Below are positions 1,019 to 35,687 of a stretch of DNA of 35,687 nt, piece after piece. Within the stretch, counting starts at the first letter, position 1; the number at the start of each line of letters is the position of its first letter. The position numbers and the translations under genes were made by a program. The stretch comes from a virus (Duplodnaviria; Heunggongvirae; Uroviricota; Caudoviricetes), in the IMG/VR virus record IMGVR_UViG_2690315992_000010; one strand, given 5' to 3'. Below the pieces are notes generated by a model. The model did no database searches, was not told where the DNA came from, and saw only the letters and a list, made by a program, of their open reading frames with translations.

Positions 1019-1432
1019 ATGAAAAAGATTATCGCTGGTGTTGTTCTTGCTCTGGGTTTGGTTGGTGCTGCAAATGCTAATACCTATTATGTGTGTAATT
1101 CCTACTTCGAACATAAAGGAGATGATACACAATATCTTCGTGATGGCGACCGTTATTATCATGCACCGTCTGGAAAATATCGTGGTTTTATCGGTGTGAA
1201 AGTTCGCGTGAATGATGATAATAGTCAATTTGCTTTCAACGATCCGGTATATGATAAGACAATCAAAAGCCCTAAATTGAAAGAAGATAAGAACGAGAAA
1301 GAAGAATATTATGGTTCCGAAGATGGTAAATCCTACATCAAGTATCTGCATTCTGTTGATGGCGCGCCTATATTTGATGTTAAAAAAGGTGATACGTCTT
1401 ATTCCCTGATTAGCTGCCGTGAAATTCTTTAA
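1019..1432 (+). CDS. secreted/periplasmic protein of unknown function (Sec signal peptide)
   Basis: Strong RBS AGAGGAAA before ATG 1019. N-terminus MKKIIAGVVLALGLVGAANA is a canonical signal peptide with AxA cleavage motif. Two Cys (positions 26 and 134) could form a disulfide. Confidence 0.6.
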   Translation: MKKIIAGVVLALGLVGAANANTYYVCNSYFEHKGDDTQYLRDGDRYYHAPSGKYRGFIGVKVRVNDDNSQFAFNDPVYDKTIKSPKLKEDKNEKEEYYGSEDGKSYIKYLHSVDGAPIFDVKKGDTSYSLISCREIL

Positions 1433-1446
1433 TCTTTAATCACCTA

Positions 1447-1486
1447 GCCCCTATCGTTATAATACGCGGTAGGGGCGTTTTTGTTT
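1447..1486 (+). terminator. hairpin with T-tract between secreted-protein gene and recombinase gene
   Basis: GCCCCTA...TAGGGGC stem around a TTATAATA centre, followed by GTTTTTGTTT. Could be a terminator/attenuator or a recombinase-associated palindrome. Confidence 0.4.
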
Positions 1487-1495
1487 GGAAATGGT

Positions 1496-3175
1496 ATGAA
1501 AACTAAACTGTATTCGTATATTCGTTTCTCGTCTATGCGTCAGAATGATGGTTCGAGTTATGAACGACAAATCAGGATGGCTAGAGAGATTGCGGTAAAG
1601 TATGACCTTGAACTGGTAAATGATTATCAGGATCTGGGTGTATCTGCGTTTAAGGGTGCTAACTCCAAAACAGGGGCGCTATCTCGTTTCCTTGATGCAA
1701 TAGGTAGATCCGTTCCTGTTGGTAGCTGGCTATTCATCGAAAACTTGGACCGTTTATCCCGTGCCGATATTGTCAGTGCGCAGGAGTTATTCCTTTCAAT
1801 CATCCGTAGGGGGATAACCATTGTTACTGGCATGGATAACAAGATCTACTCGCTGGATACTGTTACCGCTAACCCGATGGACCTGATGTTCTCCATCCTT
1901 TTATTCATCCGTGGTAATGAGGAAAGCCAGACTAAGCGCAATCGTACTAACTCAAGCGCACTGATTAAGATTAAAGCTCATCAAGAAAATCCACAAAATC
2001 CGGCTGTTGCAATCGAGGAAATTGGAAAGAATATGTGGTGGACTGATACCACATCTGGTTATGTGCTTCCTCATCCGGTCTTCTTCCCTATTGTTCAGGA
2101 AGTTGTGGAATTACGCAGGAATGGACGGTCAACCGCCGAGATACTGGATCACCTTAACGCGACATACACACCACCACCAGCCGCAAGTCACAAGAGGCAT
2201 TCAAACTGGTCACGGGCAATGATTGAAAGGTTGTTCCATACCCGCGCTTTGATTGGTATCAAGGAAATCTCTGTAGATGGCGTTAAGTATGAGTTAAAGG
2301 ATTATTATCCTCGTGTGCTAGATGACGCTGAGTTTTATCACCTTAAGAAAAGCATTGGTGTTAGAGCATGTAACTTTGGAGACAAAGAAGAAGTTAAACC
2401 TATTCCCTTGCTTAGTGGTGTTGGTCTATTGAAATGTGAACATTGCGGTTCCGCTATGGTTAAGGTGAAAGGAACAAACAGACGGCCTAACCAATATCGT
2501 TATTCATGCGATGCAATGCGCTCTAGTCGTATTGAATGTGTGCATACAAACTGGAGTTTTCGCGGCGACCAATTAGAGAAAGCTGTATTGCAATTGCTGG
2601 CTGATAAAATCTGGATTGCTGAAGATAAGGCTAATCCGGTTCCGGCTTTGAAAGTACAGATTGATGAAATATCACGCAAGATTGATAACCTGATTACCCT
2701 TTCTGCTATGACAGGAGCAACGAAGGAGCTAGCCGATCAGATTACTACCCTCAATAGCGAGCGTGAAACACTCTACAATCAAATTAAGATGGCAGAAGAG
2801 GAAATGTATTCTGTTGACTCTCAAGGCTGGGAGAAGCTCGCAGAATTTGATTTAGAAGATGTTTACAACGAGGATCGCATTAAGGTCCGGTTTAAGATTA
2901 AGCAAGCTCTAAAACGGATCGGGTGTAGCAGGATTGACAAGTACAAAAACTTGTTTGTACTGGAATACATCGATGGCAAGACCCAGAGAGTTGTAATAGA
3001 AAATTCAAGAGGACCGAGGAAAGGCCGGATCTTCGTTGATTTGAAGACTATCAATGATAGGCAGATTCTGGAGAGTAACGGGCTTGTTCTGCATCCATGT
3101 TTAGACATGCTGACAGATAAGAACTGGAAACCAGAAGAAGAAATACCAGGTCCATTACAGGAATTTGGAATTTAA
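1496..3175 (+). CDS. large serine recombinase (putative serine integrase)
   Basis: N-terminal resolvase-type catalytic domain (YIRFSSMRQ...SYERQ, GVSAFKG, ENLDRLSRA), then recombinase domain, Cys-rich zinc-ribbon (CEHCGS...YRYSCD...CVH) and coiled-coil; 559 aa from ATG 1496. Track start 1481 is TTG; ATG 1496 is in frame. Confidence 0.8.
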   Translation: MKTKLYSYIRFSSMRQNDGSSYERQIRMAREIAVKYDLELVNDYQDLGVSAFKGANSKTGALSRFLDAIGRSVPVGSWLFIENLDRLSRADIVSAQELFLSIIRRGITIVTGMDNKIYSLDTVTANPMDLMFSILLFIRGNEESQTKRNRTNSSALIKIKAHQENPQNPAVAIEEIGKNMWWTDTTSGYVLPHPVFFPIVQEVVELRRNGRSTAEILDHLNATYTPPPAASHKRHSNWSRAMIERLFHTRALIGIKEISVDGVKYELKDYYPRVLDDAEFYHLKKSIGVRACNFGDKEEVKPIPLLSGVGLLKCEHCGSAMVKVKGTNRRPNQYRYSCDAMRSSRIECVHTNWSFRGDQLEKAVLQLLADKIWIAEDKANPVPALKVQIDEISRKIDNLITLSAMTGATKELADQITTLNSERETLYNQIKMAEEEMYSVDSQGWEKLAEFDLEDVYNEDRIKVRFKIKQALKRIGCSRIDKYKNLFVLEYIDGKTQRVVIENSRGPRKGRIFVDLKTINDRQILESNGLVLHPCLDMLTDKNWKPEEEIPGPLQEFGI

Positions 3176-25181: not shown

Positions 25182-27086
25182 TTAGAACGATGTTACCCAG
25201 CTACGGCCTCTATTTGGGCGTCTGGCGATGTTTTTACGTTGTGGTCGTGTGATTGGCTTATTTTCTTCGATTTGCTCGTCAGATTGCGATTTAGGAGCTT
25301 CTACGGATTCTTCTGGTTCACGGTTCAAACTATCTTTGATGGCTTCGAGTTTTTCCCATGACATTTTATTGAGTACATGGCGATAACTAGCCACCGCATA
25401 GGTTAGGCAGTCCAAGCCCTCGTTGCGTTGCTGACCAACTTTTACCCAACGTGTGGTATTACCCTGCCGTTTCAACTGTTCAGATAGCAATTGCTCGCAG
25501 TAGTCATCAGGAACGTCACCAATCTGGAAGACCGTATGAGGATCGCTGTCTCTCAAGTTCCGGTTAATCATTTCACGGATCATCGTCTTAAGGTTGTTTA
25601 CGCCCAGAATTTTAAGGGTAAAACCGCCCGTTCTTGTGTCTTTTACCGGAAGGATTGGAGCATCAACATTACTTGCGCCCTTAATGGCGCATAGATTTTG
25701 CCACCTAGTGCAAAAGCGGTAGATCACTTGCGTAGCTCGTCCGTTTGATGAGTCCACGAAAGCGGATAGCATCGGGATTCGTTGACCGGATCGGGTATAG
25801 AATTTTGCTTTCAGGAAGTTGTAAAGCTGGTCATATGCTGGTGATTCGTGGCGTTCGCAGTTCACATCATAGAATGATCGGTGATCAACTACGCATATCC
25901 CTTTACGAGAGATACCCAGCAAGGTAGATTCCAGACGGTCTTTTTGCTGGTCAACTCCACCTACCAGAGCCAAAACATCATCAGGAATATTATCTAAGCT
26001 AATGTCAGTTTTCAGCGTTTCCAGTTCGTCGGCTGTGCGGTCTTCGTTAAGATCATCGAAGGTTTCACCGAGCACCACATTATAGAACGTTGCCAGCGAC
26101 ATATTCGCGTAGCTATCAGCAAAGTCCACCACACACGCACGGATAGAACTAAACGGAGACATAAGGCGGTTAGCATGAAAACCGATTACTTCCGCATTTG
26201 GTTCGGTGGCGACCCATTCTCCCTGAGCAACAGCACGGAGGCGATCTGGTTCTGACCAATCAGTTTCACATGACGGGCAACGGTAAACGGCTGTGTCTGG
26301 ATTCGGCAGTGATTTACCATTGATTACATGCCAATCAAAGAATACTCTACTCCATTCCATTACGTGTTTGTGTCCGCAATGCTGGCAAACGACGTGGTAT
26401 TTTCTTTTATCCGAGAGTTCCCATTGTTGGTTTATCGCCCCATCCCGCGAAGTTGGAGTAGAAGCAATTACGATCCTTGCATCATCACCGAAAGTGGTTG
26501 CGCGTTGTTCCGCTAGCTGGATCGGGTTCCCTTCGTCTGACTCATCAGCCGCATCAACTTCATCAAGAATAATCAAAGGTAGTGTTTTACCGCGAAGATG
26601 TGATGGACTATTCAACGACATGAAATACATGAATGATCCGTTACGAAGCTGAATAATCGATGAGTTGTTAACGGCATTGCGATCTGACTTGTCGGTGATC
26701 ATCGCCTTTAATTCTGGGGTTGCCTCTAATACTGGCTTCACCTTACCCGCGATCCAGCTATTCAACTCGCGGACGTTTGCTTGCAAAACACCTATATTAG
26801 TGGGGTTGCTGGCGATCCTATGAAAGATAATACCGTTTAGCACAAGAGTTTTACCCAACTGCGCCGAGCACTTTAGCACAATTTTTCGCCTATCTTCGGT
26901 GATCGCGTCCATCATCCCACGTTGGAAAGGATGCAATTTAATTAGCGATCCGGCTTTAACACCATCGGTTGCAACTACATTAGCCTCTACCCATTCGCTA
27001 GGTTTCATGGCTTTAGGTGGGCGAATTGCAGCAGAGATATTTCTGAGAATCTTTTTTAATTTTGCCTTATTAGAAATCAGTTTCAT
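25182..27086 (-). CDS. terminase large subunit (GpA family)
   Basis: 634 aa; Walker A-like KCSAQLGKT, IASTPT motif, Cys-rich zinc-finger-like segment (CQHCGH...CPSC), size similar to lambda gpA; GAGGGTAA RBS before ATG 27086. Confidence 0.8.
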   Translation of the reverse strand: MKLISNKAKLKKILRNISAAIRPPKAMKPSEWVEANVVATDGVKAGSLIKLHPFQRGMMDAITEDRRKIVLKCSAQLGKTLVLNGIIFHRIASNPTNIGVLQANVRELNSWIAGKVKPVLEATPELKAMITDKSDRNAVNNSSIIQLRNGSFMYFMSLNSPSHLRGKTLPLIILDEVDAADESDEGNPIQLAEQRATTFGDDARIVIASTPTSRDGAINQQWELSDKRKYHVVCQHCGHKHVMEWSRVFFDWHVINGKSLPNPDTAVYRCPSCETDWSEPDRLRAVAQGEWVATEPNAEVIGFHANRLMSPFSSIRACVVDFADSYANMSLATFYNVVLGETFDDLNEDRTADELETLKTDISLDNIPDDVLALVGGVDQQKDRLESTLLGISRKGICVVDHRSFYDVNCERHESPAYDQLYNFLKAKFYTRSGQRIPMLSAFVDSSNGRATQVIYRFCTRWQNLCAIKGASNVDAPILPVKDTRTGGFTLKILGVNNLKTMIREMINRNLRDSDPHTVFQIGDVPDDYCEQLLSEQLKRQGNTTRWVKVGQQRNEGLDCLTYAVASYRHVLNKMSWEKLEAIKDSLNREPEESVEAPKSQSDEQIEENKPITRPQRKNIARRPNRGRSWVTSF

Positions 27087-27129
27087 GTAATTACCCTCAT
27101 TACGAAATATGAAGGTATTTATTAAATTG

Positions 27130-27158
27130 TTGATATTTTGATAAATACGGGTATTAAG
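27130..27158 (+). promoter_or_regulatory. candidate sigma70 promoter for rightward gene 27175 (divergent from terminase)
   Basis: TTGATA - 16 bp - TATTAA upstream of AAGGGGGGG RBS. Confidence 0.3.
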
Positions 27159-27174
27159 ATTTAAGGGGGGGTGT

Positions 27175-27780
27175 ATGCTAATTAATCAGCAACAAAGAGA
27201 TGCATTAGAATTAGCCTTTTCTTGTTGTACCGATCATGAATATCGTTTGCCAGTTAAGCACCATCACAAGAAGACTGATTACACAACATCTGGCTTTAGT
27301 CGTGAGGAAGCTAAACAGATTTTAATCGAGTTGTATCGCGATCATGGGTATACCGATATTCATAACTTCTTTAAGAAGCATCGTACATCACAGACAGAGT
27401 TTAATAGAGTTCGTGAATGGTTTGATTTTGACATTAAGCGATTCTATCGAGTAGATGACGGTCCTATCTATCGGTTGCAGTGGACACCGATTAGGGAAGT
27501 GCTTAAACAGAAGAGATTGAATCATGCCATTACACGCTATCGTAATGTGGCTTTTAAGAAAGGCTATGGTGATTCAAGGGAATTGTTTGTAGAACTCGCT
27601 AACGTGCGATATAGCCACTATTACAGGAATCCTAAAGAGTTCTTCGAAGTGCTGCGCAAGGTTGATATTAGTCGGGGTACATATTATTCACGGTTGAAGA
27701 AGTACGGGATTAAGGCAGAGTTCTTTATGTCGGTTGACGATGGAGAACTTTTTCCGATAAAATGTAAGTCCTCTAAATAA
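27175..27780 (+). CDS. helix-turn-helix protein of unknown function (paralogue family member 1)
   Basis: 201 aa; contains FSREEAKQILIELYRD and C-terminal ISRGTYYSRLKKYGI segments that recur in the two small proteins at 27810 and 31471. Confidence 0.5.
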   Translation: MLINQQQRDALELAFSCCTDHEYRLPVKHHHKKTDYTTSGFSREEAKQILIELYRDHGYTDIHNFFKKHRTSQTEFNRVREWFDFDIKRFYRVDDGPIYRLQWTPIREVLKQKRLNHAITRYRNVAFKKGYGDSRELFVELANVRYSHYYRNPKEFFEVLRKVDISRGTYYSRLKKYGIKAEFFMSVDDGELFPIKCKSSK

Positions 27781-27809
27781 AGGTGAACATTCACTTTAAT
27801 TTGGAGAAA

Positions 27810-28043
27810 ATGACTATGACTACTAAAGCTACTCGCGGTCGCCCTGCCCGTTTTAACGCTGAACAGATGGCTGATATTGCCTACGCTTATTATACAGCGG
27901 ATCGTGGTAAGGAAGCGAAAGAACAGATTCTTAGTGAACATGGGATCTCAATCGCCCAATTCTATAAGAATATGAAGAAGTTGGACATTAAATTCTATGT
28001 TCAGATCGGTGATGGTCAGATCGTAGAAGCAACAGGTTTTTGA
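27810..28043 (+). CDS. small helix-turn-helix DNA-binding protein (paralogue 2)
   Basis: 77 aa from ATG 27810 (GGAG RBS); RGRPARFNAEQMADIAYAYY...ISIAQFYKNMKKLDI. Track start 27783 is GTG. Confidence 0.5.
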   Translation: MTMTTKATRGRPARFNAEQMADIAYAYYTADRGKEAKEQILSEHGISIAQFYKNMKKLDIKFYVQIGDGQIVEATGF

Positions 28044-28058
28044 GTTTTGATTCTCTTT

Positions 28059-28082
28059 GCCACTCTTCGGAGTGGCTTTTTT
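28059..28082 (+). terminator. intrinsic terminator
   Basis: GCCACTC-ttcg-GAGTGGC followed by TTTTTTG. Confidence 0.7.
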
Positions 28083-28203
28083 GTATGTAAAACAATCGGC
28101 GCAAAACTGCGCTCATTTCTAAGTTGAGTCCAAATCTGGACTGATCTATAGATGCATCCAAATCTGGAGGGATGCGCTTAAAGTTCAGCGCATCTACAGA
28201 TAC

Positions 28204-28228
28204 AAAAAAGCCCCTGAAATTCAGGGGC
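28204..28228 (-). terminator. intrinsic (bidirectional) terminator after Rha operon
   Basis: AAAAAA-GCCCCTGAA-at-TTCAGGGGC-AAAAATT; its right half is the TTCAGGGGCAAAAAT motif that forms the iteron array at 30.7-30.9 kb. Confidence 0.65.
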
Positions 28229-28236
28229 AAAAATTA

Positions 28237-29070
28237 TTACAGTCCGAAGACTTCCAGAGAGCCAGCATTCTGACGAATCAGCAAAGCAGTGTTATTAATG
28301 ATTGCTCGTGAGTTATTCGGCTGTGGCAATTTCAAAGTTGCGGCCTTTTCTTCTTCAAGCAATCCGAGTTTTACGAGATGCGGGATAGCATCAGCAGTGA
28401 ACTCGATCTGACCGTGTGCCGACATACGAGCGAACATATAGCCAGGAGGAAGCAGATCATAGCCTTTAGGCTTACCAGAAGCATCCAGACGACGCTCAAG
28501 AACACCAGCAGCACATAAACCTTTCAGAATCATTTGTACCTTCGTAGAGCCTCGTTTTTCGCCTAATAAGCGGCTAAGACTGTGTGCATCAATAGCTTTA
28601 CGGATATGAAGATCAACTAATTGTTCTTTTTCTTGAATCAGTTGTTCGTTTGCGGCTTCTAATTCCATTGCCTCACGAATCCAATCGAGCTTAGTCATGT
28701 TTGCGTATGGGTTGACTTGCTGAGAACGCAGTTTTTCATTTTCTTCTTTCAGTCGTTTCCATTCCTGAATAACAACCATTCGACGCTTAACATCGTAACC
28801 AGTGACAAGAGTCAGAGTCATTTCTTCGTCTAGTTGATATTCGTTTTGTTCGCGTCCGTATTGGTCAAAATAGATGACGCGAAACTTCGCGTGATCTTCA
28901 TAACCTAGAGCATTCAACATCTTAGTTATATCAACTTTAACTTTGTGGTGTTCTTTTCCGGTAAATTCAGCGATCTGACGAGAAGACATGGTCAGTGGTT
29001 TGGTGTTATCAACAACCAGAGACACGGAAGCAGTTTTAACAGCAGTATTCATAGTAGTAACAGTATTCAT
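28237..29070 (-). CDS. Rha-family phage regulatory protein / antirepressor
   Basis: N-terminal LTMSSRQIAEFTGKEHHKVKVDI matches the Rha-domain signature; ~150-aa C-terminal antirepressor-like domain. Confidence 0.65.
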   Translation of the reverse strand: MNTVTTMNTAVKTASVSLVVDNTKPLTMSSRQIAEFTGKEHHKVKVDITKMLNALGYEDHAKFRVIYFDQYGREQNEYQLDEEMTLTLVTGYDVKRRMVVIQEWKRLKEENEKLRSQQVNPYANMTKLDWIREAMELEAANEQLIQEKEQLVDLHIRKAIDAHSLSRLLGEKRGSTKVQMILKGLCAAGVLERRLDASGKPKGYDLLPPGYMFARMSAHGQIEFTADAIPHLVKLGLLEEEKAATLKLPQPNNSRAIINNTALLIRQNAGSLEVFGL

Positions 29071-29159
29071 AGTAAAAATTCCCCTTAAACGGTTTAGTGA
29101 TTTGGTCCTCCTAGTTCCGGCATCTCAACCGGAACAATTTTATTTATGATAGAAATTTA

Positions 29160-29492
29160 TTACCAATCGATTTCTACTTGGTCTTCTTCATAATAAGGAA
29201 TCGCATATTCATAACGCCAATTTTCGATGATTTCACGTTCTTCATTAGTAAGAAGGTGATTGTTAACTGGAGTCGCATTGTGATTACCAGCTTCGAATTG
29301 CTCGCGAACTTCCAGCATTGCATGAATACCAGTTAAGGTCATCAGATCAAACGGAACATGCATACTACGGGAGATAGTTTCACGGGATACACCCCAATCA
29401 TTTTCTACATGGCTAGGGGTTACAGAAACGGTTTTGCCGGAGATTTTAACAGTCCAGTCATACAGGGATTTAGTGATGGTAAATTCTTTCAT
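29160..29492 (-). CDS. hypothetical protein
   Basis: 110-aa ORF with AGAGGA RBS, first gene downstream of promoter at 29549-29577. Confidence 0.5.
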   Translation of the reverse strand: MKEFTITKSLYDWTVKISGKTVSVTPSHVENDWGVSRETISRSMHVPFDLMTLTGIHAMLEVREQFEAGNHNATPVNNHLLTNEEREIIENWRYEYAIPYYEEDQVEIDW

Positions 29493-29548
29493 GTTACATC
29501 CTCTTTACAAATCTAGGTCAAATAGGTTCAAAGTTGTCAAGCGCGATA

Positions 29549-29577
29549 ATCATAAAAAAGTCAGAAATTTTTGTCAA
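29549..29577 (-). promoter_or_regulatory. candidate sigma70 promoter (leftward) overlapped by palindromic operator
   Basis: Minus-strand -35 TTGACA (29577-29572), 17-bp spacer, -10 TATGAT (29554-29549). Palindrome TTGTCAA-tacccc-TTGACAA at 29571-29590 overlaps the -35. Confidence 0.4.
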
Positions 29578-29612
29578 TACCCCTTGACAAGACGCCAAAG
29601 GGTTGACCTAAC

Positions 29613-30071
29613 TTACAGCATATCTAAGCCTTCATCGTAACCGTAGAAGCCACCGTGAGAAGAGAAAGCGATTGGTGCGTAGTCTTCGTCTTCCTCATCT
29701 TGTTCTGGGGCTTCCTGAGCGGTTTCTTTACCGTAATTAAACATTGCTTCATCCAGTTCACGAAGAGTCAAGAAGCTACCCAGGTCAATGTCACCGGAAC
29801 GGACTTGAAACGGCAGATCATCACGAACAATAATTGCTGGTAGATTCTGGTACTTTAAGCGTTCTTCATCGGTGAAGACGTTAACAACAATGGTCGGCTT
29901 CTTATTACGGCAAAACGCATACCATGCACTAGAGAAATGGGATTCATCAGAGTTGAAAAGGATGTTATAACCACGTTCACGGAACATCTTCATTAACTTG
30001 TCATTGTGGAAGCTATCAGAATCCAGACCCAGAAGGATAAAAGGAGTAGTGGTAGTCATCTTGTGGTTCAT
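29613..30071 (-). CDS. hypothetical protein with acidic C-terminal tail
   Basis: 152 aa, GAGGA RBS; C-terminus EAPEQDEEDEDYAP; no domain recognised. Confidence 0.5.
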   Translation of the reverse strand: MNHKMTTTTPFILLGLDSDSFHNDKLMKMFRERGYNILFNSDESHFSSAWYAFCRNKKPTIVVNVFTDEERLKYQNLPAIIVRDDLPFQVRSGDIDLGSFLTLRELDEAMFNYGKETAQEAPEQDEEDEDYAPIAFSSHGGFYGYDEGLDML

Positions 30072-30713
30072 AGTGGAAATCCTCTAAAAGAAAGTGAATC
30101 AAACAAATTACACTAGTATTTATAACGAGAATTTTTTATCTATTTGGAAGGGATTGGTATTCAGTCGGGCATAGCCCTCCTTCATAGATTTTGATTAAAT
30201 CATCATCAAAACGAAGAAGTATCTTTAGAATATAAGAATCTTTCTTTCGAAGAAAGAATAATCAGGAAGCAATTTCAGCAACCGCAGGTTGCGATCCCGA
30301 AGGGATAACCAATACCTTTCTAGAAAGTGATTGTTACTCACTTCGTTCGTTTACTAGAATCAGTTATCATCTAGTATTAAAATCCCTTTCTAAGAAAATC
30401 CTTTCAAAAGTGATTCTCGATGCCACGCAGTGGCGTCGCAGACGTTTGAGAGTGAGCGAAGCGAGCGAGCAAACTAGTTAATTCCTTCTAAGACCATCTA
30501 GTATCATCTAGTTTAAATTAGTTGTTACTAGAAGTAATTGGTTAGCGCTACGCGCAGTCGGGCAAAGCCCTCCTAATATCTTTTTGGTTATTTTTGGTTT
30601 TACACATGAGCGTAGCGAATGTGTTATATAATATCTATGCACGCCCGATTCCCCGTTTTTACCCCTCACTAAGTTAATGTTTTATAAAGAGTTTTTCTTA
30701 CCAATCCTTTTCG

Positions 30714-30906
30714 GGGGCAAATTTCAGGGGCAAAAATTAGATTTTAAGGGGCAATTATTGGCATTTCAGGGGCAAAAATGAGGGGCAAAATCACTGTTTC
30801 CCAGAATTTCAGGGGCAAAAATAGTGGGTTTCAGGGGCAAAAATGGGATAGTGGAATCTTGGGTATTTTGGTTCGGGGGCAAAATTCAGAATTTCAGGGG
30901 CAATTC
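30714..30906. repeat. array of ~9 direct GGGGCAA(A/T) iterons (5 copies of full TTTCAGGGGCAAAAAT)
   Basis: Core starts near 30715, 30727, 30749, 30770, 30782, 30811, 30832, 30876, 30897; spacings mostly 12 or 21 bp; non-coding. Confidence 0.6.
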
Positions 30907-30993
30907 CCATCAAATATTTTGATAGAAAATTCTTGTATATTATTTAATCAAAAAATCACCAAAAAGTGGCGTAAGTTAATGATTTAAAAAGAA

Positions 30994-31019
30994 TTGTCAA
31001 AAGGTCTCCGTGCTATAAT
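30994..31019 (+). promoter_or_regulatory. candidate extended -10 promoter (rightward)
   Basis: TTGTCAA at 30994-31000 and TGcTATAAT at 31011-31019. Confidence 0.35.
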
Positions 31020-31099
31020 AGGTTATAAAGGTTGATAATCCTGATCTACCATTTTCAAACAAAAATTTTGATAGTCATTTCTCGCTTAGGTCAAGTGTA

Positions 31100-31128
31100 T
31101 TGACAACTGTCAAGGATTATTTTATACT
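31100..31128 (+). promoter_or_regulatory. candidate strong sigma70 promoter (rightward) with palindromic -35 region
   Basis: TTGACA (31100-31105), 17-bp spacer, TATACT (31123-31128); -35 lies in palindrome TTGACAACTGTCAA. Confidence 0.5.
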
Positions 31129-31263
31129 TTTTCTCACTGGTGGGGGTTGAAATTTTCTAAACAGTCCCCATATAGATGATAAGCAAGAATTTCCACGTTA
31201 TAAATACATGTGTGAAATGATTGTTCACTTCTGAAAATCTCCTGATCCACTGCTAATTCATAC

Positions 31264-31291
31264 AGCACTGGTTAGATATACAGTGCTTTTT
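31264..31291 (+). terminator. intrinsic terminator-like hairpin (possible end of a ~160-nt small RNA)
   Basis: AGCACTG-gttagatata-CAGTGCT followed by TTTT. Confidence 0.4.
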
Positions 31292-31415
31292 CGGTTGAAT
31301 ATTGTACGAATTGATTAATAATTAATCTTCTCTTTAGCAATTCGTGCTCCCACTGATCGGATATACAGTGGTTTTACAGGGTTTTCTGAAAATCATTTTA
31401 TAAATACAAGTGTTC

Positions 31416-31436
31416 AGAGCGAAATGCTCTTTTTTA
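31416..31436 (+). terminator. attenuator hairpin immediately upstream of gene 31471
   Basis: AGAGC-gaaat-GCTCT followed by TTTTTT. Confidence 0.45.
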
Positions 31437-31470
31437 AGAAATTATTAATCCACATGTGAGGAATCGACTG

Positions 31471-31650
31471 ATGGCTAGACCTGTTAAGTTCACTCGTGAA
31501 ATGATTGTTGATATTGCTAAACGCTTTTACAGCGACACTGAGCGAGGCGGGGAAAACTTCTTTAAGAAGGAAGGAATTGATAGAAGCGGATTCTACAAGC
31601 TAATGAAGAAATACGAAATTCAGGTAAAGATTAACGTTCAAGTTTGTTAA
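31471..31650 (+). CDS. small helix-turn-helix DNA-binding protein (paralogue 3)
   Basis: 59 aa from ATG 31471 (GAGGA RBS); ARPVKFTREMIVDIAKRFY...IDRSGFYKLMKKYEI parallels the 27810 protein. Track start 31456 is GTG. Confidence 0.5.
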   Translation: MARPVKFTREMIVDIAKRFYSDTERGGENFFKKEGIDRSGFYKLMKKYEIQVKINVQVC

Positions 31651-31765
31651 TCCACTTTCACTGAGAATTATATGATGGCTTTAAAAAAAGAAAAAGCCTC
31701 CCTTGTTGCAGCAAAGGAGGCTTGAAATGAACAATTAAAACTAACTTTCTACAGGAGTATTTATA

Positions 31766-32710
31766 ATGTTATTTTCCGCTAACTTTTTCACTAACGAAGT
31801 AACCAACGCTAAAGCAGTTATCAAATTTGGCACCGAAGCAAACAAGAAGATTCAGCCGAAAGTTGTTGTTCATGTTTCCTTTGCGCAGCAGAAATCCGCT
31901 TTCGCTGGCTTTAAAGCACATCGTGAAGCACTGATCGCGGCTGGCTTTGGTGTTGACGGTAAACTGCCTAACGGCATTCGTAAAGCAATCGACCGCGTTA
32001 AACCTGCTAAAGACGTTGCAGTAGACCACATCGTTACTTTCACCGTTAAGAACTCTTCTGAACTGTTCCACCTAGTGATTGCTGGTGATACTGCTATCGT
32101 TTCCGCTCCTAACATGGATTTTCAGGATACCGCTGATTGCAACATTACCTTTGGTCGTCGTAAAGAAGTTACCGGAAAAGCTAAACTGAACTTCACCAAA
32201 TCCGGCAATCCTTACTTTGCTGTATTCTTTAACAGCCACGCTACTGAGAAAGAAGTAGTAGAACTGGTTGCATATGAAGGTGAAGAAAAAGCACGTATTG
32301 AATCTTGCGACGCTTTCGTAGAACTGGAAGCACAGGTTAATGCTGTTTCTCCGGTTGCTGTTGAAGATCGTTTCTCTGCACTGGAAGCACAGATCGCAGA
32401 ACTGAAAGCTGCGCTGGAAGAAAAAGACCAGATCATCGAAGCACAGAAAGCTGAGATTGAAGAACTGAAAGCTAAAGAAGTTGCTCCGGTGGCAGTAGTT
32501 GAAAATGCGGCTGATGAGGCCGCAAATGATGAAGTAGAAGTGAAAATCGATGTGATGCGTGATCCGATGGCTGCACTGCAATTGCTTCGTTCTTTTAAGG
32601 GCAAATCTCATTTTTCTAGTGATGCGGTAGACGAGGAAGAAGAACAGAAACGCAATGTTGCAATGCTTCATGATGAAATGTACGGTACTAACTTTTCTTA
32701 CTGCCAATAA
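31766..32710 (+). CDS. hypothetical protein, apparently highly expressed (N-terminal globular part, C-terminal Ala/Glu-rich coiled-coil-like region)
   Basis: 314 aa; consensus AGGAG RBS 8 nt before ATG; codon usage strongly skewed to CTG/CGT/GGT/GAA/AAA/GCT; bracketed by terminators. No family recognised. Confidence 0.6.
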   Translation: MLFSANFFTNEVTNAKAVIKFGTEANKKIQPKVVVHVSFAQQKSAFAGFKAHREALIAAGFGVDGKLPNGIRKAIDRVKPAKDVAVDHIVTFTVKNSSELFHLVIAGDTAIVSAPNMDFQDTADCNITFGRRKEVTGKAKLNFTKSGNPYFAVFFNSHATEKEVVELVAYEGEEKARIESCDAFVELEAQVNAVSPVAVEDRFSALEAQIAELKAALEEKDQIIEAQKAEIEELKAKEVAPVAVVENAADEAANDEVEVKIDVMRDPMAALQLLRSFKGKSHFSSDAVDEEEEQKRNVAMLHDEMYGTNFSYCQ

Positions 32711-32714
32711 AAAA

Positions 32715-32732
32715 GGGACTCCGAAGAGTCCC
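32715..32732. terminator. bidirectional intrinsic terminator
   Basis: AAAAAA-GGGACTC-cgaa-GAGTCCC-TAGTAAGTTT; stronger T-tract on minus strand. Confidence 0.55.
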
Positions 32733-32806
32733 TAGTAAGTTTAGGTTAGGTTTGCACAACAAAGATGAACATAATGCTACATTATTCTTTAAAGCCAGAA
32801 AAATAA

Positions 32807-32824
32807 CCGCCTCTTTCGAGGCGG
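32807..32824 (-). terminator. intrinsic terminator (minus strand)
   Basis: CCGCCT-ctttcg-AGGCGG with minus-strand T-tract (TTATTTTTCT). Confidence 0.5.
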
Positions 32825-32981
32825 GAGGATTAATACTCAATCTATACTTGTTATGTTTTTATGTTGTATAGATCCTGACTATGAAAACACTGTACTGGAG
32901 TGTGTTTTATGGCTTTTAATCGGGAATCCTCAAAGAAGATCCCCTGTTAATAACCATAAGGAGAAAAGGCAGATTACACTA

Positions 32982-33155
32982 TTATTTAGTATCCTTTTTA
33001 CAGCAACTAAAAAGAATAAACAAAAAGAAGCATACCCAGCCGTAAGGCGTACCGATTAGAAATTTGAAAAACACCACCAGCGATATAAAAATCAATTTAA
33101 TGCCAGCGACGATAGTCAAAAACAGCAGAGTAGCAAAGTAGACAAAAAGATCCAT
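32982..33155 (-). CDS. small hydrophobic membrane protein, ~57 aa (two predicted TM segments)
   Basis: ATG ~33155 with AGAGGA RBS; MDLFVYFATLLFLTIVAGIKLIFISLVVFFKFLIGTPYGWVCFFLFILF...; not in ORF track. Confidence 0.25.
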   Translation of the reverse strand: MDLFVYFATLLFLTIVAGIKLIFISLVVFFKFLIGTPYGWVCFFLFILFSCCKKDTK

Positions 33156-33208
33156 AGATAATCCTCTTTGAAAACGACCATCATCTATAGTTCAATTCAT
33201 CGATTTAA

Positions 33209-33310
33209 TTAATTATACTTGAAAGCGTTACACAAAGTAGAAATGCCAATATGTGCCAGTGAATATACGATAGTTAATCCTACAGCCAGATAAATCAAAA
33301 ATTCAACCAT
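33209..33310 (-). CDS. small hydrophobic peptide, ~33 aa
   Basis: ATG ~33310 with GAGGA RBS; MVEFLIYLAVGLTIVYSLAHIGISTLCNAFKYN; not in ORF track. Confidence 0.2.
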   Translation of the reverse strand: MVEFLIYLAVGLTIVYSLAHIGISTLCNAFKYN

Positions 33311-33408
33311 AGGTAAATCCTCAAATAAGAAAAAGGTTAGCGGGGGATGTTCTCCCCCGTAGGCGTTGACCCATTCAACACCCTTCACATATATTTAGTA
33401 TCTAATTT

Positions 33409-33966
33409 TTACGACACATCAAATTCATCATCTTCTTCTGGTTCTTGTTCTTCCGGTTCATCCATTAATGGTAATTCTTCTTCCTCGTCTTCTCCCAAAT
33501 CTGCATTTTCGAACAAGTCCCCTACTTCATTTAAACGACGCTCGATGATCTCCCTTAGCTTATTCTTCAATGTTTTCTGGTCAGTTGCAGATTCGAGAAT
33601 TTCTAAAGCGTCGATTGTGGCGATCTGCAAAATAGTCTGTTTCACTTTCCCGCAGTATTCCGCTAGTTGCTGTTCTACATAACCGACAGGAATCAGGAGA
33701 TTCATTTTTTCCTGGTTCTCTCGTTCGGCTGCATCTGCCATTGCTCTTTCTCTGCGGAGACGTTCTTGATCAATCGCTTCTTTGATTGAAGTTTGTTTAA
33801 GTGGGTTAATTACGTTCTTTAGCACCCAATCGCAACCTTCCTTTGCTGGAACACGCCTCTTATTGGTATTGTAAGGTAGTCCCCTTTCTAACCATCGCTT
33901 ACCGCCACCATTCAATGTATAACCATATAAACGGGAAATTTCTGTAAGGGTTAATTCTTCTTTCAT
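33409..33966 (-). CDS. terminase small subunit (Nu1-like) candidate
   Basis: N-terminal HTH segment LTLTEISRLYGYTLNGGGKRWLERGLPY resembles the Nu1 DNA-binding domain pattern; central coiled-coil; strongly acidic C-terminus; GGAGGA RBS; palindromes and GC-rich site just upstream. Confidence 0.5.
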   Translation of the reverse strand: MKEELTLTEISRLYGYTLNGGGKRWLERGLPYNTNKRRVPAKEGCDWVLKNVINPLKQTSIKEAIDQERLRRERAMADAAERENQEKMNLLIPVGYVEQQLAEYCGKVKQTILQIATIDALEILESATDQKTLKNKLREIIERRLNEVGDLFENADLGEDEEEELPLMDEPEEQEPEEDDEFDVS

Positions 33967-33984
33967 TGGTTATCCTCCATTAAA

Positions 33985-34043
33985 TTTGCGTAATTTTATT
34001 TATTGGTTTTACGCAAAATCTAAGCGCCTAAAACGCGTTTTAG
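33985..34043. promoter_or_regulatory. palindromic protein-binding sites upstream of small terminase gene (cosB-like candidates)
   Basis: Inverted repeat TTTGCGTAA-N15-TTACGCAAA (33985-34017) and perfect 16-bp palindrome CTAAAACGCGTTTTAG (34028-34043). Confidence 0.4.
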
Positions 34044-34090
34044 CGAAGGGAAAGATCCAGTAATGGTAAGGGTTAGGAAGGGGGTTAATA

Positions 34091-34109
34091 GTCGCGTAGC
34101 GACCGCGCC
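34091..34109. other. candidate cos nicking region (GC-rich island with dyad symmetry)
   Basis: GTCGCGTAGCGACCGCGCC in AT-rich context ~125-145 bp upstream of the Nu1-like start, the position expected for cosN in lambda-like genomes. Inference only. Confidence 0.25.
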
Positions 34110-34324
34110 ATGAGTGAAGTGATCACGTTTTAAAATCTCACACGCACATCAAATACCGGGGTGCCGAAAACTCCCTTTATTTCATCCGTGGAACAGTACC
34201 TTTTTAATTTGTCAAGCATTAATTTCTTAATTTAATTACTAAATCTCATCCCAATAATTGAAAAAATATCAAAAATCAATAAAGTAAGCATCTAAAAGTC
34301 AGTCCATACCAAAAGAGGTATAAA

Positions 34325-35104
34325 ATGAAAAACATTATCGCTGCTATCGTGCTTTCTGCTACTGCTTTCGGTGCTGATGCTGCGTCCTTTGATTGCACTA
34401 AGGCTACTACCAAATCAGAGAAGTTTATTTGTGCTAACGAGTCTATCTCCGCACTGGATTCGAAACTTCATGAAGTATATGTTAAAGCTGTTAAGATTGA
34501 TCCATCTCTGAAACAAGAGCAACGCAACTGGAATAAAACTGTTCGTGATACAATGATCAATATCGGGCAGATTCAGCCACTGGAGGCTGTATACAACGCT
34601 CAAATCCAAAACTTGATGAATGTATTATCTAAAGAAGAAACCGCGTCAGAGAGCGATTCAGAGACTTCTGCGAAGGTTGAAGAAGAACAACCGAAACAGG
34701 AAGAAGTAAAGAAACTGAATGTTACCGCGATTTACGCATGTACTACAAAATTTACATGGAAAGTTATCGATGGTGAGGAAACAGAAGCTGTAAAAGATAA
34801 ACTCTACGGAAACAAAACTTTTGATAATAACGGCGGTAAACTTAAGATCAAAATGGTAGACGATGTTCCGGTATCTTTTGTGTATTCCGACAAGTATGAT
34901 GTTTATAAATCAAGTCTCAAGCCATCTAAAGAGAATCCAAACGCAATGGAAGGTAAATCCAAACAGGATACTATTGGACGTGTTAACACTTATAACATCT
35001 GGGTAAGCAAAAAAGGTGACATGCGTCTTGAAGTAATTGAACCAAAATTTGATTCTGAATATAAACACACTCAATTTGCATGTGACATGGTAGACGCAGA
35101 GTAA
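34325..35104 (+). CDS. secreted protein with DUF1311 / LprI-like N-terminal domain
   Basis: Signal peptide MKNIIAAIVLSATAFGADA; SFDCTKATTKSEKFICANESISALDSKLHEVY matches the conserved Cys-containing DUF1311 signature; AGAGG RBS. Confidence 0.55.
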   Translation: MKNIIAAIVLSATAFGADAASFDCTKATTKSEKFICANESISALDSKLHEVYVKAVKIDPSLKQEQRNWNKTVRDTMINIGQIQPLEAVYNAQIQNLMNVLSKEETASESDSETSAKVEEEQPKQEEVKKLNVTAIYACTTKFTWKVIDGEETEAVKDKLYGNKTFDNNGGKLKIKMVDDVPVSFVYSDKYDVYKSSLKPSKENPNAMEGKSKQDTIGRVNTYNIWVSKKGDMRLEVIEPKFDSEYKHTQFACDMVDAE

Positions 35105-35336
35105 GAGGTGAAATGATGCAATTCAATAGCATGAAGATTACTCAAAAATGGTGGGATGCGATGAAAGCTAACCACCAGAACGATATTAATTAAGTAACAT
35201 TTTAGATATACAGCACCCAGCTAACAGATCACCTTTTATGGATTTCATTATAACCCCTTTGATCTGGAAACTATGTTAATTAGTTGATTTCTAAGCCTTG
35301 TCCTTGTGATGGGGCTTTTTATTGCAAAATTTTTAG

Positions 35337-35687
35337 TTATTTTGGGTTGACTACATTCGGGTTGCCAATTCGCCAGGCTAACTCTTGCTGAGTGATTTCT
35401 GACTGTAAAAAAGCATTTAACAGCAATACTTTAGAGGCGACGCTCAAAGGTACTTCAATAAAGTGATCATGACTATTTAATGGCGAAGGTAACGGGATAA
35501 GCTCGTTATCTTCAAAATAAAAATCAAATGCGGTCAGTAAAGCATCTTTTGCCGCTTCCATCGCTTCAGCGACAGTTTCGCCCTGCGTCAACGCTTCAGG
35601 GATATCCACAAAAGAAACCATATAACCGCCTTCCGGCGCGGGTGTAAGAGTGACGGGATAACGCATAATTTCGACTGTCTCTCGCAT
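35337..35687 (-). CDS. hicB: HicB-family antitoxin, N-terminal domain only; C-terminal DNA-binding domain apparently truncated at junction with phage-like DNA
   Basis: MRYPVTLTPAPEGGYMVSFVDIPEALTQGETVAEAMEAAKDALLTAF... recognised as HicB N-terminal domain (recalled as near-identical to E. coli HicB; not verified). ORF ends ...ITQQELAWRIGNPNVVNPK* inside what should be the first helix of the HTH. Base composition and codon usage look more host-like here. Confidence 0.55.
   Translation of the reverse strand: MRETVEIMRYPVTLTPAPEGGYMVSFVDIPEALTQGETVAEAMEAAKDALLTAFDFYFEDNELIPLPSPLNSHDHFIEVPLSVASKVLLLNAFLQSEITQQELAWRIGNPNVVNPK

What the first reader, a model, noticed from the sequence alone, without database searches (positions are those of the whole stretch)
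31766..32710. Highly codon-optimised 314-aa protein of unknown function outside the structural operon
Perfect AGGAG RBS, codon usage matching the most highly expressed genes (comparable to the capsid and tail tube genes), own promoter region and flanking terminators, yet not part of the virion module and not recognisable by motif. The C-terminal third is Ala/Glu/Lys-rich and coiled-coil-like. An abundant non-structural phage protein could be a host-takeover, DNA-binding or anti-defence factor.
Basis: partly seen in the sequence, partly recalled or inferred. Interest (0 to 1): 0.55.

Follow-up and report, generated by a model that had tools for sequence, protein, structure and literature searches.

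The report
Probable iteron-binding phage origin protein
This abundant, unannotated prophage protein always travels with one particular set of DNA repeats about 1 kb upstream, so it most likely binds them, probably to start copying of the phage genome in a widespread E. coli/Salmonella phage family that has no recognisable replication genes.

Summary
The ORF is real: 31766-32710, + strand, 314 aa, AGGAG plus an 8-nt spacer. Its CAI of 0.63 equals the tail tube gene and exceeds the capsid gene. It matches nothing in Pfam, PHROGs, NCBIfam, PADLOC, PDB, isolated phages or plasmids. In 1.84 billion representative proteins, only three full-length clusters match. All named relatives come from Escherichia, Shigella or Salmonella.

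The window is a ~34.7-kb prophage inserted in hicB. It has no recognisable replication or repressor gene.

The decisive result is comparative. At this locus, related prophages carry one of three unrelated basic N-terminal domains. Each is followed by a coiled coil and an acidic tail. Each type pairs with its own array of direct repeats at one position, ending at a conserved AT-rich block:
- This type pairs with 6-9 GGGGCAA repeats (22 of 22 loci).
- A second type pairs with GTGTAGG repeats (17 of 17 loci).
- A third type pairs with 13 CGGGGA repeats (1 locus).

The neighbouring genes do not co-vary with the repeats.

Best reading (confidence 0.5): it is the sequence-specific iteron-binding origin protein, that is, the replication initiator. 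This is a new variant of a known kind. No binding or replication experiment exists.

The "own promoter" is not supported. The flanking hairpins are minus-strand terminators.

The parts
31766..32710 (+). CDS of the 314-aa protein, stop codon included
   Evidence: ORF list and translation. Substitutions are biased to the third codon position, 81/76/401. CAI is 0.629.
31753..31757 (+). Shine-Dalgarno AGGAG, 8 nt upstream of the ATG
   Evidence: Read directly from the sequence. AGGAGTATTTATA is conserved in five other diverged loci, including the second allele type.
31766..32350 (+). N-terminal domain (aa 1-195): basic, beta-rich; proposed to determine which repeats the protein binds
32351..32476 (+). 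Ala/Glu/Lys-rich coiled coil (aa 196-237); its length varies among homologues
   Evidence: AF2 helix 196-237 with pLDDT 70-82. Heptad blocks are gained or lost among homologues. Only sub-threshold coiled-coil hits in Pfam.
32540..32707 (+). Acidic C-terminal module (aa 259-314) ending ...EEEEQKRNVAMLHDEMYGTNFSYCQ; proposed partner-binding tail
   Evidence: It aligns with the tail of the otherwise unrelated second allele (AQMALHDAIYDTNYS) and with Salmonella homologues. Some homologues carry a different tail instead, one shared with an ORF6N-domain protein.
30709..30907 (+). Array of 9 direct repeats (iterons), TTTCAGGGGCAAAAAT, all on one strand; 7 are in helical phase (spacings 21, 21, 43, 22, 42, 21 bp)
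   Evidence: The array is kept in homologous loci whose protein is only 46-67% identical. It is replaced by other repeats wherever the protein's N-domain is replaced.
30912..30951 (.). AT-rich block (88% A+T) directly after the last repeat, conserved in all three allele classes; candidate DNA-unwinding element
31100..31128 (+). Strongest sigma-70-like promoter of the region (TTGACA-17-TATACT, 11 of 12). Its -35 lies in the perfect palindrome TTGACAACTGTCAA. Likely drives the HTH gene and this gene.
   Evidence: It is identical in the second allele class.
31471..31650 (+). 59-aa HTH-like protein (MARPVKFTREM...), always immediately upstream of the locus gene; does not co-vary with the repeats
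31694..31723 (-). Conserved hairpin with a minus-strand U-tract between the HTH gene and this gene
   Evidence: The hairpin and the U-tract are preserved in six diverged loci and in the third allele.
32714..32733 (-). Minus-strand intrinsic terminator just after the stop codon; also the right-hand boundary of the swappable gene cassette
32807..32824 (-). Second minus-strand terminator, ending the convergent TerS operon

Best explanation
The protein is the sequence-specific DNA-binding protein of the phage's iteron array, and most likely the phage's replication initiator.

Proposed mechanism:
1. The basic N-terminal domain (aa 1-~190) recognises the nine GGGGCAAAA repeats at 30709-30907. These lie on one face of the helix next to a conserved AT-rich block.
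2. The coiled coil (aa ~196-237) oligomerises the bound protein.
3. The acidic C-terminal tail, with its conserved LHDEMYGTNFSY motif, recruits a partner, presumably a host replisome component. The phage encodes no recognisable helicase, primase or helicase loader.
4. The gene is probably co-transcribed with the upstream 59-aa HTH gene from the promoter at 31100. Its codon usage points to very high production.

What is shown and what is inferred:
- Shown: the co-variation, the domain architecture and the codon bias.
- Inferred: the DNA binding itself.
- Inferred one step further: the origin function and the recruitment of a partner.
For: 1. Three-way co-variation at one locus.
- This N-domain pairs with 6-9 GGGGCAA repeats within 1.5 kb upstream in 22 of 22 loci.
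- A second, unrelated N-domain (MKNSKR...) pairs with 6-9 GTGTAGG repeats and no GGGGCAA in 17 of 17 loci.
- A third unrelated N-domain pairs with 13 CGGGGA repeats in the one locus found, L062.
- All arrays sit at the same position, on the same strand, and end at the same conserved AT-rich block.

2. The gene and the array are two separate swapped segments. About 860 bp of conserved sequence lies between them. That spacer exists in several haplotypes within each class (HTH59 is 42-100% identical). Simple linkage therefore does not explain the pairing.

3. The neighbours do not co-vary.
- In loci with the other repeats, the 152-aa protein is 75-91% identical to the window's, HTH59 56-98% and TerS 83-94%.
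- In Salmonella loci that keep GGGGCAAAA, the 152-aa protein is only 33-39% identical and HTH59 only 42-62%.

4. The first two allele types have a basic N-domain (pI 9.75 and 9.77) and an acidic C-terminal half (pI 4.3 and 4.1). In the third, the N-domain is near neutral (pI 7.75) and the C-terminal half is acidic.

5. The layout is the classic iteron-origin layout: direct repeats in about 21-bp phase next to an AT-rich block.

6. No other replication gene is recognisable in the whole prophage.

7. A tested precedent uses the same logic. [quoted passage not shown]

8. In a metagenome scaffold, the same locus holds a protein whose N-domain is ORF6N, which I know as a predicted DNA-binding domain. 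It is joined to the same coiled coil and to the alternative tail.
Against: - No binding or replication experiment exists.
- The protein shows no sequence or fold similarity to any known initiator, such as lambda O, Rep_3 winged-helix proteins or RepA_N.
- The structure model is only moderate (pLDDT 73) and rests on 10 sequences.
- CAI of 0.6-0.7 is unusually high for an initiator.
- DnaA boxes are not consistently present. They are perfect in L003 only.
- The repeats lie about 860 bp from the gene, neither inside nor beside it.
- The third allele class rests on a single locus.
- Co-variation of a binding protein with its sites is equally expected for an immunity repressor and its operators.
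Confidence: 0.5

Rival explanations
1. The protein binds the repeats but acts as a regulator. It would be the immunity or incompatibility determinant of a phage family that lacks a CI-type repressor. It would coat or loop the array to silence the early region or the origin, and each allele type would define a heteroimmune group.
For: A repressor and its operators co-vary in the same way as an initiator and its origin (my knowledge of lambdoid immunity regions). No repressor is recognisable anywhere in the element. The locus sits in a divergent early control region that holds strong promoters, a palindromic operator-like site and leader hairpins. High abundance fits a coating protein.
Against: The repeats are direct, in phase and 7-13 in number. 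They lie 200 bp or more from any predicted promoter and about 590 bp from the leftward gene's control region. They end at an AT-rich block, as origins do. Known repressors are not codon-optimised to structural-protein level (my knowledge).
Confidence: 0.2
2. The protein binds the repeats as an adaptor for another DNA transaction. Examples are a centromere-like or membrane-anchoring complex, or a packaging-recognition complex working with the nearby small terminase. The C-terminal motif would recruit that machinery.
For: The design of a repeat array, a DNA-binding domain, a coiled coil and a short conserved C-terminal peptide resembles ParR, TubR and KfrA-type adaptors (my knowledge). TerS is the right-hand neighbour. 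High abundance fits a stoichiometric coating role.
Against: The element integrates with a serine recombinase, so it needs no partition system. No partition NTPase is encoded. TerS and TerL do not co-vary with the repeats. There is no Pfam hit to KfrA_N, ParB or ParR.
Confidence: 0.1
3. The protein does not bind DNA. It would be an abundant early effector, such as an Ant-like antirepressor, a host-takeover factor or an anti-defence factor, and its pairing with the repeats would reflect shared ancestry of two neighbouring mosaic segments.
For: Some homologues share their coiled coil and tail with an ORF6N protein of PHROG 'anti-repressor' families. The layout of a small HTH gene, then an intergenic minus-strand terminator, then a ~300-aa gene recalls P22 arc-sar-ant (my knowledge). 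High early expression suits an effector that works by titration.
Against: The pairing is perfect in 40 loci across three classes, even though the spacer between the two segments recombines freely. The first two allele types have basic N-domains. There is no PADLOC hit. This reading leaves the in-phase repeat array next to an AT-rich block without a function.
Confidence: 0.12
4. It is a virion or assembly protein, such as a scaffold or decoration protein, encoded away from the structural operon.
For: Its CAI equals that of the tail tube gene. It contains a coiled coil. PHROG hits to head protease and head protein families are far below significance (E = 0.02).
Against: The capsid gene already carries a fused S78 protease and linker. 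The gene lies on the opposite strand within the early region. Its alleles change with DNA repeats, not with capsid genes.
Confidence: 0.03

Closest known systems
RepA of the Vibrio cholerae PLE satellites (RepA_N family initiator)
   Same: In both, a modular initiator's N-terminal DNA-binding domain co-varies with the origin repeats, while the C-terminal part is shared between alleles. In both, whole replicon modules are exchanged between otherwise similar elements (PMC8263062).
   Different: There is no sequence similarity and no RepA_N Pfam hit. PLE has three ~30-bp semi-palindromic iterons; here there are 7-13 short direct repeats. This protein has a coiled coil and an acidic tail and is heavily codon-optimised.
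Lambda O protein and ori-lambda (Phage_rep_O)
   Same: Both are temperate-phage proteins of about 300 aa. In both, the N-terminal domain is proposed or known to bind in-phase repeats next to an AT-rich region, the C-terminal part recruits the helicase-loading machinery, and alleles match cognate origins among related phages (my knowledge).
   Different: There is no Pfam or PDB similarity. The repeats lie about 860 bp upstream of the gene, not inside it. No P-like helicase loader is encoded. This protein has a coiled coil and an acidic tail.
Iteron-plasmid Rep proteins (Rep_3; pi, RepA, RepE, TrfA)
   Same: Both have arrays of direct repeats with about 21-22-bp phasing beside an AT-rich segment. 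Both depend on host replication proteins (my knowledge).
Phage Ant / KilA-N / ORF6N / Rha-type modular regulators
   Same: Both combine an N-terminal specificity domain, a coiled-coil linker and a shuffled C-terminal module. Homologues of this protein share the linker and the alternative tail with an ORF6N protein at the same locus.
   Different: This N-domain matches none of those families. The tail in this window is the other, acidic type. A binding protein paired with repeat arrays is not a described feature of antirepressors (my knowledge).
KfrA of IncP plasmids
   Same: Both are about 310 aa, with an N-terminal DNA-binding part followed by an Ala/Glu/Lys-rich coiled coil (my knowledge).
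   Different: There is no KfrA_N hit. KfrA binds an inverted-repeat operator in its own promoter rather than a phased array of direct repeats (my knowledge).

Membership tests
Lambda O-type initiators (Pfam Phage_rep_O) | Sequence membership in the family's N-terminal winged-helix domain | tested here: not met
   No hit in Pfam even at E<=1. No PDB sequence hit with the single sequence or the profile.
Lambda O-type initiators (Pfam Phage_rep_O) | Iterons located inside the initiator gene itself | tested here: not met
   All nine repeats lie at 30709-30907, about 860 bp upstream of the gene. No GGGGCAAAA match, even with one mismatch, falls inside the gene.
Iteron-plasmid Rep (Rep_3, WH1-WH2) | Tandem winged-helix fold | tested here: inconclusive
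Iteron-plasmid Rep (Rep_3, WH1-WH2) | Direct repeats in about 22-bp phase beside an AT-rich region | tested here: met
   Spacings are 21, 21, 43, 22, 42 and 21 bp. An 88% A+T block starts 5 bp after the last repeat.
Any replication initiator (functional class) | Specific binding to the origin repeats | not testable with these tools
   Only indirect evidence exists: three N-domain types pair with three repeat types in 22 + 17 + 1 loci.
Any replication initiator (functional class) | Gene plus repeats are sufficient and necessary for replication | not testable with these tools
   This needs a plasmid-replication assay or a deletion in an inducible lysogen.
RepA_N initiators (PLE, Gram-positive plasmids) | RepA_N domain | tested here: not met
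   No Pfam hit.
RepA_N initiators (PLE, Gram-positive plasmids) | [quoted passage not shown] | tested here: met
   The precedent is in PMC8263062.
Antirepressor-type modular proteins (AntA/ANT, ORF6N, KilA-N, Rha, Bro-N) | One of the family's N- or C-terminal Pfam domains | tested here: not met
   The target has no such hit. The separate Rha protein of the window (28237-29070) does. Only the tail of some homologues is shared with an ORF6N protein.
   Pfam, PHROGs, NCBIfam, PADLOC, PDB sequence and fold searches, BFVD, tblastn against phages and plasmids, and the search of 1.84 billion representatives all gave nothing beyond the protein's own narrow family.

The most novel reading that the evidence does not exclude
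These proteins could be the master identity determinant of a temperate-phage family that has neither a CI-type repressor nor any known replication protein. An abundant protein coating the repeat array would serve both as origin activator and as the immunity or incompatibility factor. Swapping one N-domain together with its repeat cassette would then create a new, mutually compatible phage type in a single step.
Probability: 0.15. Interest if true: 0.8.

Novelty: new variant of a known kind. Interest (0 to 1): 0.6.

Why it matters
This prophage type is common. The full gene is present in 33 of 5,426 complete E. coli genomes. Sister alleles and Salmonella relatives occur as well, and one protein cluster was seen on at least 1,000 contigs.

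Its whole non-structural region is unannotated, and no isolated phage in the INPHARED collection resembles it closely. The swap analysis picks out one protein and one DNA array as a matched pair. That gives a concrete, cheap experiment to find how these phages replicate or maintain themselves.

If confirmed, it would add up to three new DNA-binding domains with known target sequences. It would also add an initiator architecture (beta-rich domain, coiled coil, acidic recruiting tail) unlike the winged-helix initiators. Finally, it would explain how sibling prophages diversify by exchanging cassettes.

Tried and rejected
Searches that found nothing:
- Homology to known families: Pfam, PHROGs, NCBIfam and PADLOC.
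- PDB by sequence and by profile.
- megablast and tblastn against isolated phages and plasmids, for all three alleles.
- GTDB species-representative genomes.

Searches that found only close relatives:
- The metagenome scan returned only E. coli-like copies.
- The exhaustive search of representatives found only three full-length clusters. A 2097-aa repeat protein also scored, and I judged it spurious.

Structure:
- The single-sequence AF2 model was useless (pLDDT 43).
- The afdb50 library was not available.
- Profile comparison of the first two N-domain types gave 0.3% probability of relationship.

Other dead ends:
- Searching the big database with the C-terminal tail profile returned only fragments.
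- Rfam found nothing significant in 27000-35687.
- GC skew across the region was uninformative.
- DnaA boxes are perfect in L003 but not conserved elsewhere.
- Partial megablast hits that looked like domain fusions were IS-truncated remnants of the same prophage.
- Literature searches for a hicB- or ycdX-integrated prophage, and for the protein accessions, found nothing relevant.

Idea weakened:
- I considered a minus-strand promoter (TATAAATAC over the SD spacer) that would make a countertranscript. It is weakened because the third allele lacks that motif.

Full report
**The observation**

The ORF at 31766-32710 (+) is real and encodes 314 aa. AGGAG at 31753-31757 lies 8 nt before the ATG.

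I computed CAI using E. coli weights entered from memory. The gene scores 0.629, second in the window. The tail tube gene at 15245-15715 scores 0.637 and the capsid-protease gene 0.509. Most other genes score 0.2-0.4.

Across 16 homologous DNA copies, differences fall 81/76/401 on codon positions 1/2/3. The + frame is therefore coding and under purifying selection, and the long antisense ORFs are by-products.

No promoter-like site lies in the 115-bp upstream gap. The nearest strong one (31100-31128, 11 of 12 matches) precedes a 59-aa gene at 31471-31650.

The three flanking hairpins exist, but all have their T-tracts on the minus strand. The two downstream ones end a convergent operon made of the small terminase gene (33409-33966, PHROG 57) and two small hydrophobic ORFs.

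**Context**

The window is a ~34.7-kb prophage inserted in the chromosomal hicB gene of E. coli. The following genes are recognisable:
- a serine recombinase (1481-3175)
- an M15 endolysin
- tail genes
- an S78 protease-capsid fusion
- a portal gene
- a GpA-type large terminase
- a Rha-family protein

No repressor, initiator, helicase, primase or helicase loader is recognisable. The other proteins of the 27-35 kb region have no functional assignment in Pfam, PHROGs, NCBIfam or PADLOC. Apart from Rha, the only matches are TerS (PHROG 57), the LprI-like protein at 34325-35104, and PHROG families of unknown function.

No isolated phage in INPHARED is close. The best terminase and capsid matches are 43% identical.

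**The protein family**

Nothing matches the protein in Pfam, PHROGs, NCBIfam, PADLOC, PDB sequences, phage records or plasmid records.

In 1.84 billion representative proteins, only three full-length clusters match: its own, one at 50% identity and one at 35%. Word-indexed searches add Salmonella variants at 57-66% identity. All named members come from Escherichia, Shigella or Salmonella. The genome, virus and metagenome scans added only E. coli-like copies.

The alignment shows three parts:
- a well-conserved N-terminal domain (aa 1-~190)
- a coiled coil of variable length
- one of two alternative C-terminal modules

The window carries the acidic type, ending ...EEEEQKRNVAMLHDEMYGTNFSYCQ. The other type (...WNKYLxKKNG...FEN.FEVRKAA) also occurs on an ORF6N-domain protein. 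That protein sits at the same locus in a metagenome scaffold.

**Structure**

A single-sequence AF2 model failed. A model of aa 1-195 built from 10 sequences reached pLDDT 73 and pTM 0.66. It is beta-rich and also contains four helices.

**The key result**

The 1.4-kb non-coding stretch to the left (30072-31470) contains nine direct repeats, TTTCAGGGGCAAAAAT, at 30709-30907. All are on one strand and seven are in helical phase. An 88% A+T block follows directly.

In E. coli O55:H7 DEC5A the same prophage has a nearly identical non-coding region and an almost identical 59-aa gene. Only two segments are replaced:
- The repeat block now holds about 7 copies of TAGTGTAGGTTT.
- The gene cassette now encodes a 333-aa protein with an unrelated N-domain, plus an 80-aa coiled-coil protein.

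The cassette boundaries are sharp. The left one falls just after the SD spacer and the right one just before the hairpin at 32714.

A third backbone relative (L062) carries a third unrelated 333-aa protein of the same design, together with 13 CGGGGA repeats. The array is at the same place, on the same strand, and ends at the same AT-rich block.

Counts over all fetched loci:

| N-domain type | Repeats within 1.5 kb upstream | Loci |
|---|---|---|
| This type (MLFSAN...) | 6-9 GGGGCAA | 22 of 22 |
| Second type (MKNSKR...) | 0 GGGGCAA, 6-9 GTGTAGG | 17 of 17 |
| Third type | 13 CGGGGA, none of the other two | 1 of 1 |

Many of these loci are close relatives, so they are not independent events. 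However, Salmonella loci whose protein is only 46-67% identical still keep GGGGCAAAA.

The neighbouring genes do not follow the repeats:

| Neighbour | Identity in loci with the other repeats | Identity in Salmonella loci that keep GGGGCAAAA |
|---|---|---|
| 152-aa protein | 75-91% | 33-39% |
| 59-aa HTH protein | 56-98% | 42-62% |
| TerS | 83-94% | 69-74% |

The spacer between array and gene occurs in several haplotypes within each class. The pairing therefore persists despite recombination between the two segments.

**Shared properties of the three allele types**
- Each has an acidic C-terminal half. The first two have basic N-domains and the third is near neutral (N-domain/C-half pI 9.75/4.3, 9.77/4.1 and 7.75/4.45).
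- Each has a coiled coil followed by a KEVxAPxV-like linker.
- The first two share the C-terminal LHD-x-(M/I)Y-x-T-N-(F/Y)-S motif.
- All are strongly codon-optimised. CAI is 0.60-0.72 for the homologues in enterobacterial loci, but 0.37 for the most distant homologue, P0127, of unknown host. It is 0.70 for the second allele and 0.56 for the third. High expression thus belongs to the locus, not to one sequence.

**Interpretation**

The simplest reading is that the N-domain recognises the repeats. I put DNA binding at roughly 0.8-0.85.

Three things point to an origin of replication, with this protein as the initiator:
- Phased direct repeats abut a conserved AT-rich block.
- The phage has no other recognisable replication gene.
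- The design pairs a swappable specificity domain with a shared effector tail.

The acidic tail would then recruit host factors. The same logic was shown experimentally for PLE RepA, where the DNA-binding N-domain co-varies with the origin and the C-terminal domain is conserved (PMC8263062).

Overall confidence in the initiator reading is 0.5. Four points hold it back:
- A repressor and its operators would co-vary in the same way.
- The codon adaptation is unusually high for an initiator.
- DnaA boxes are not conserved.
- Nothing has been tested at the bench.

The rivals are:
- an immunity or incompatibility regulator (0.2)
- another DNA-organising adaptor (0.1)
- a non-DNA-binding Ant-like or host-directed effector (0.12)
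- a virion or assembly protein (0.03)

**Regulation (tentative)**

The hairpin at 31694-31723, with its minus-strand U-tract, is preserved between the HTH gene and the locus gene in seven diverged loci.

In six of those loci, the minus strand over the SD spacer reads TATAAATAC. The window's copy reads TTATAAATAC and is one of the four exact copies of that motif in the window. This could mark a short countertranscript against the 5' UTR, as in R1 copB-copA-repA or P22 arc-sar-ant (my knowledge). However, the third allele lacks the motif, so I leave this open.

**Verdict**

The protein is best described as a new, narrowly distributed type of iteron-associated origin protein. I class it as a new variant of a known kind, with interest 0.6.

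Noticed in passing
window 1-35687; junctions near 1 and 35337-35687: The whole element is a ~34.7-kb prophage that a serine recombinase has inserted into the antitoxin gene hicB. The hicA toxin gene stays intact beside a truncated hicB. Relatives use ycdX instead.
   Followed up: partly
window 27100-35300: No repressor, replication, helicase or primase gene is recognisable anywhere in the prophage. Most of the non-structural region has no functional family assignment.
   Followed up: partly
window 33409-33966 (-) versus 25182-27086 (-): The small terminase gene lies 6.3 kb from the large terminase gene, with the early and origin region between them. It is transcribed convergently with the gene under study.
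   Followed up: no
window 32982-33155 (-) and 33209-33310 (-): Two small hydrophobic ORFs (57 and 33 aa) with good Shine-Dalgarno sites follow TerS on the minus strand. The minus-strand terminators at 32824-32807 and 32733-32714 end that operon. L062 has a 94-aa membrane-like ORF in the same place.
   Followed up: no
window 27115-27124 (-), 27139-27148 (+), 30116-30125 (-), 31198-31207 (+), 31398-31407 (+), 31757-31766 (-): All six matches to TTATAAATAC (four exact, two with one mismatch) lie in intergenic control regions. Five of the six point toward a downstream gene. The exact copies extend to TTATAAATAC-W-N-S-TGT. The total count is not above chance (6 found, 5.1 expected), but the placement is striking. 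The motif resembles the T4 late-promoter core, TATAAATA, as I recall it.
   Followed up: partly
window 31100-31440: The leader of the HTH and locus-gene operon starts at a strong promoter whose -35 sits in the perfect palindrome TTGACAACTGTCAA. Three terminator-like hairpins follow (31266-31290, 31351-31375, 31416-31430). This looks like control by attenuation or antitermination. A perfect extended -10, TGCTATAAT, lies at 31011-31019.
   Followed up: no
window 30072-30420: About 350 bp of non-coding DNA left of the repeats is nearly identical between allele classes. A 20-nt element, CAGTCGGGCAWAGCCCTCCT, occurs at 30162 within this stretch and again at 30555, further right. Rfam gives no significant hit. 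A regulatory RNA or protein-binding sites are possible.
   Followed up: no
window 31471-31650, 27783-28043, 27175-27780: The 59-aa protein and the 86-aa protein are paralogous small helix-turn-helix-like modules with the pattern RPxKFT...GI..S.FYK..KKY (35% identity). By eye, the C-terminus of the 201-aa protein looks similar. The pattern resembles terminase-type HTH domains, as I recall them.
   Followed up: no
window 29613-30071 (-): The 152-aa protein that heads the leftward operon has an acidic C-terminal tail ending in a conserved YGYDEGLDML-like motif. Its CAI is fairly high at 0.48. Its function is unknown.
   Followed up: no
L023 4148-4390; L003 8930-9163; L028 9962-10291; L062 2071-3072: In most other cassettes, the locus gene is followed by a coiled-coil protein (77-333 aa) that ends in a conserved (K/R)(P/K)(T/L)TLR(I/L)V(A/G)-like motif. 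This partner gene is absent from the window and from L030.
   Followed up: partly
window 1019-1432 (+) and 34325-35104 (+): A 137-aa ORF with a signal-peptide-like start lies at one end of the prophage. A 259-aa LprI-family (lysozyme-inhibitor-like) protein with CAI 0.46 lies at the other end. Both are probably lysogenic-conversion cargo.
   Followed up: no
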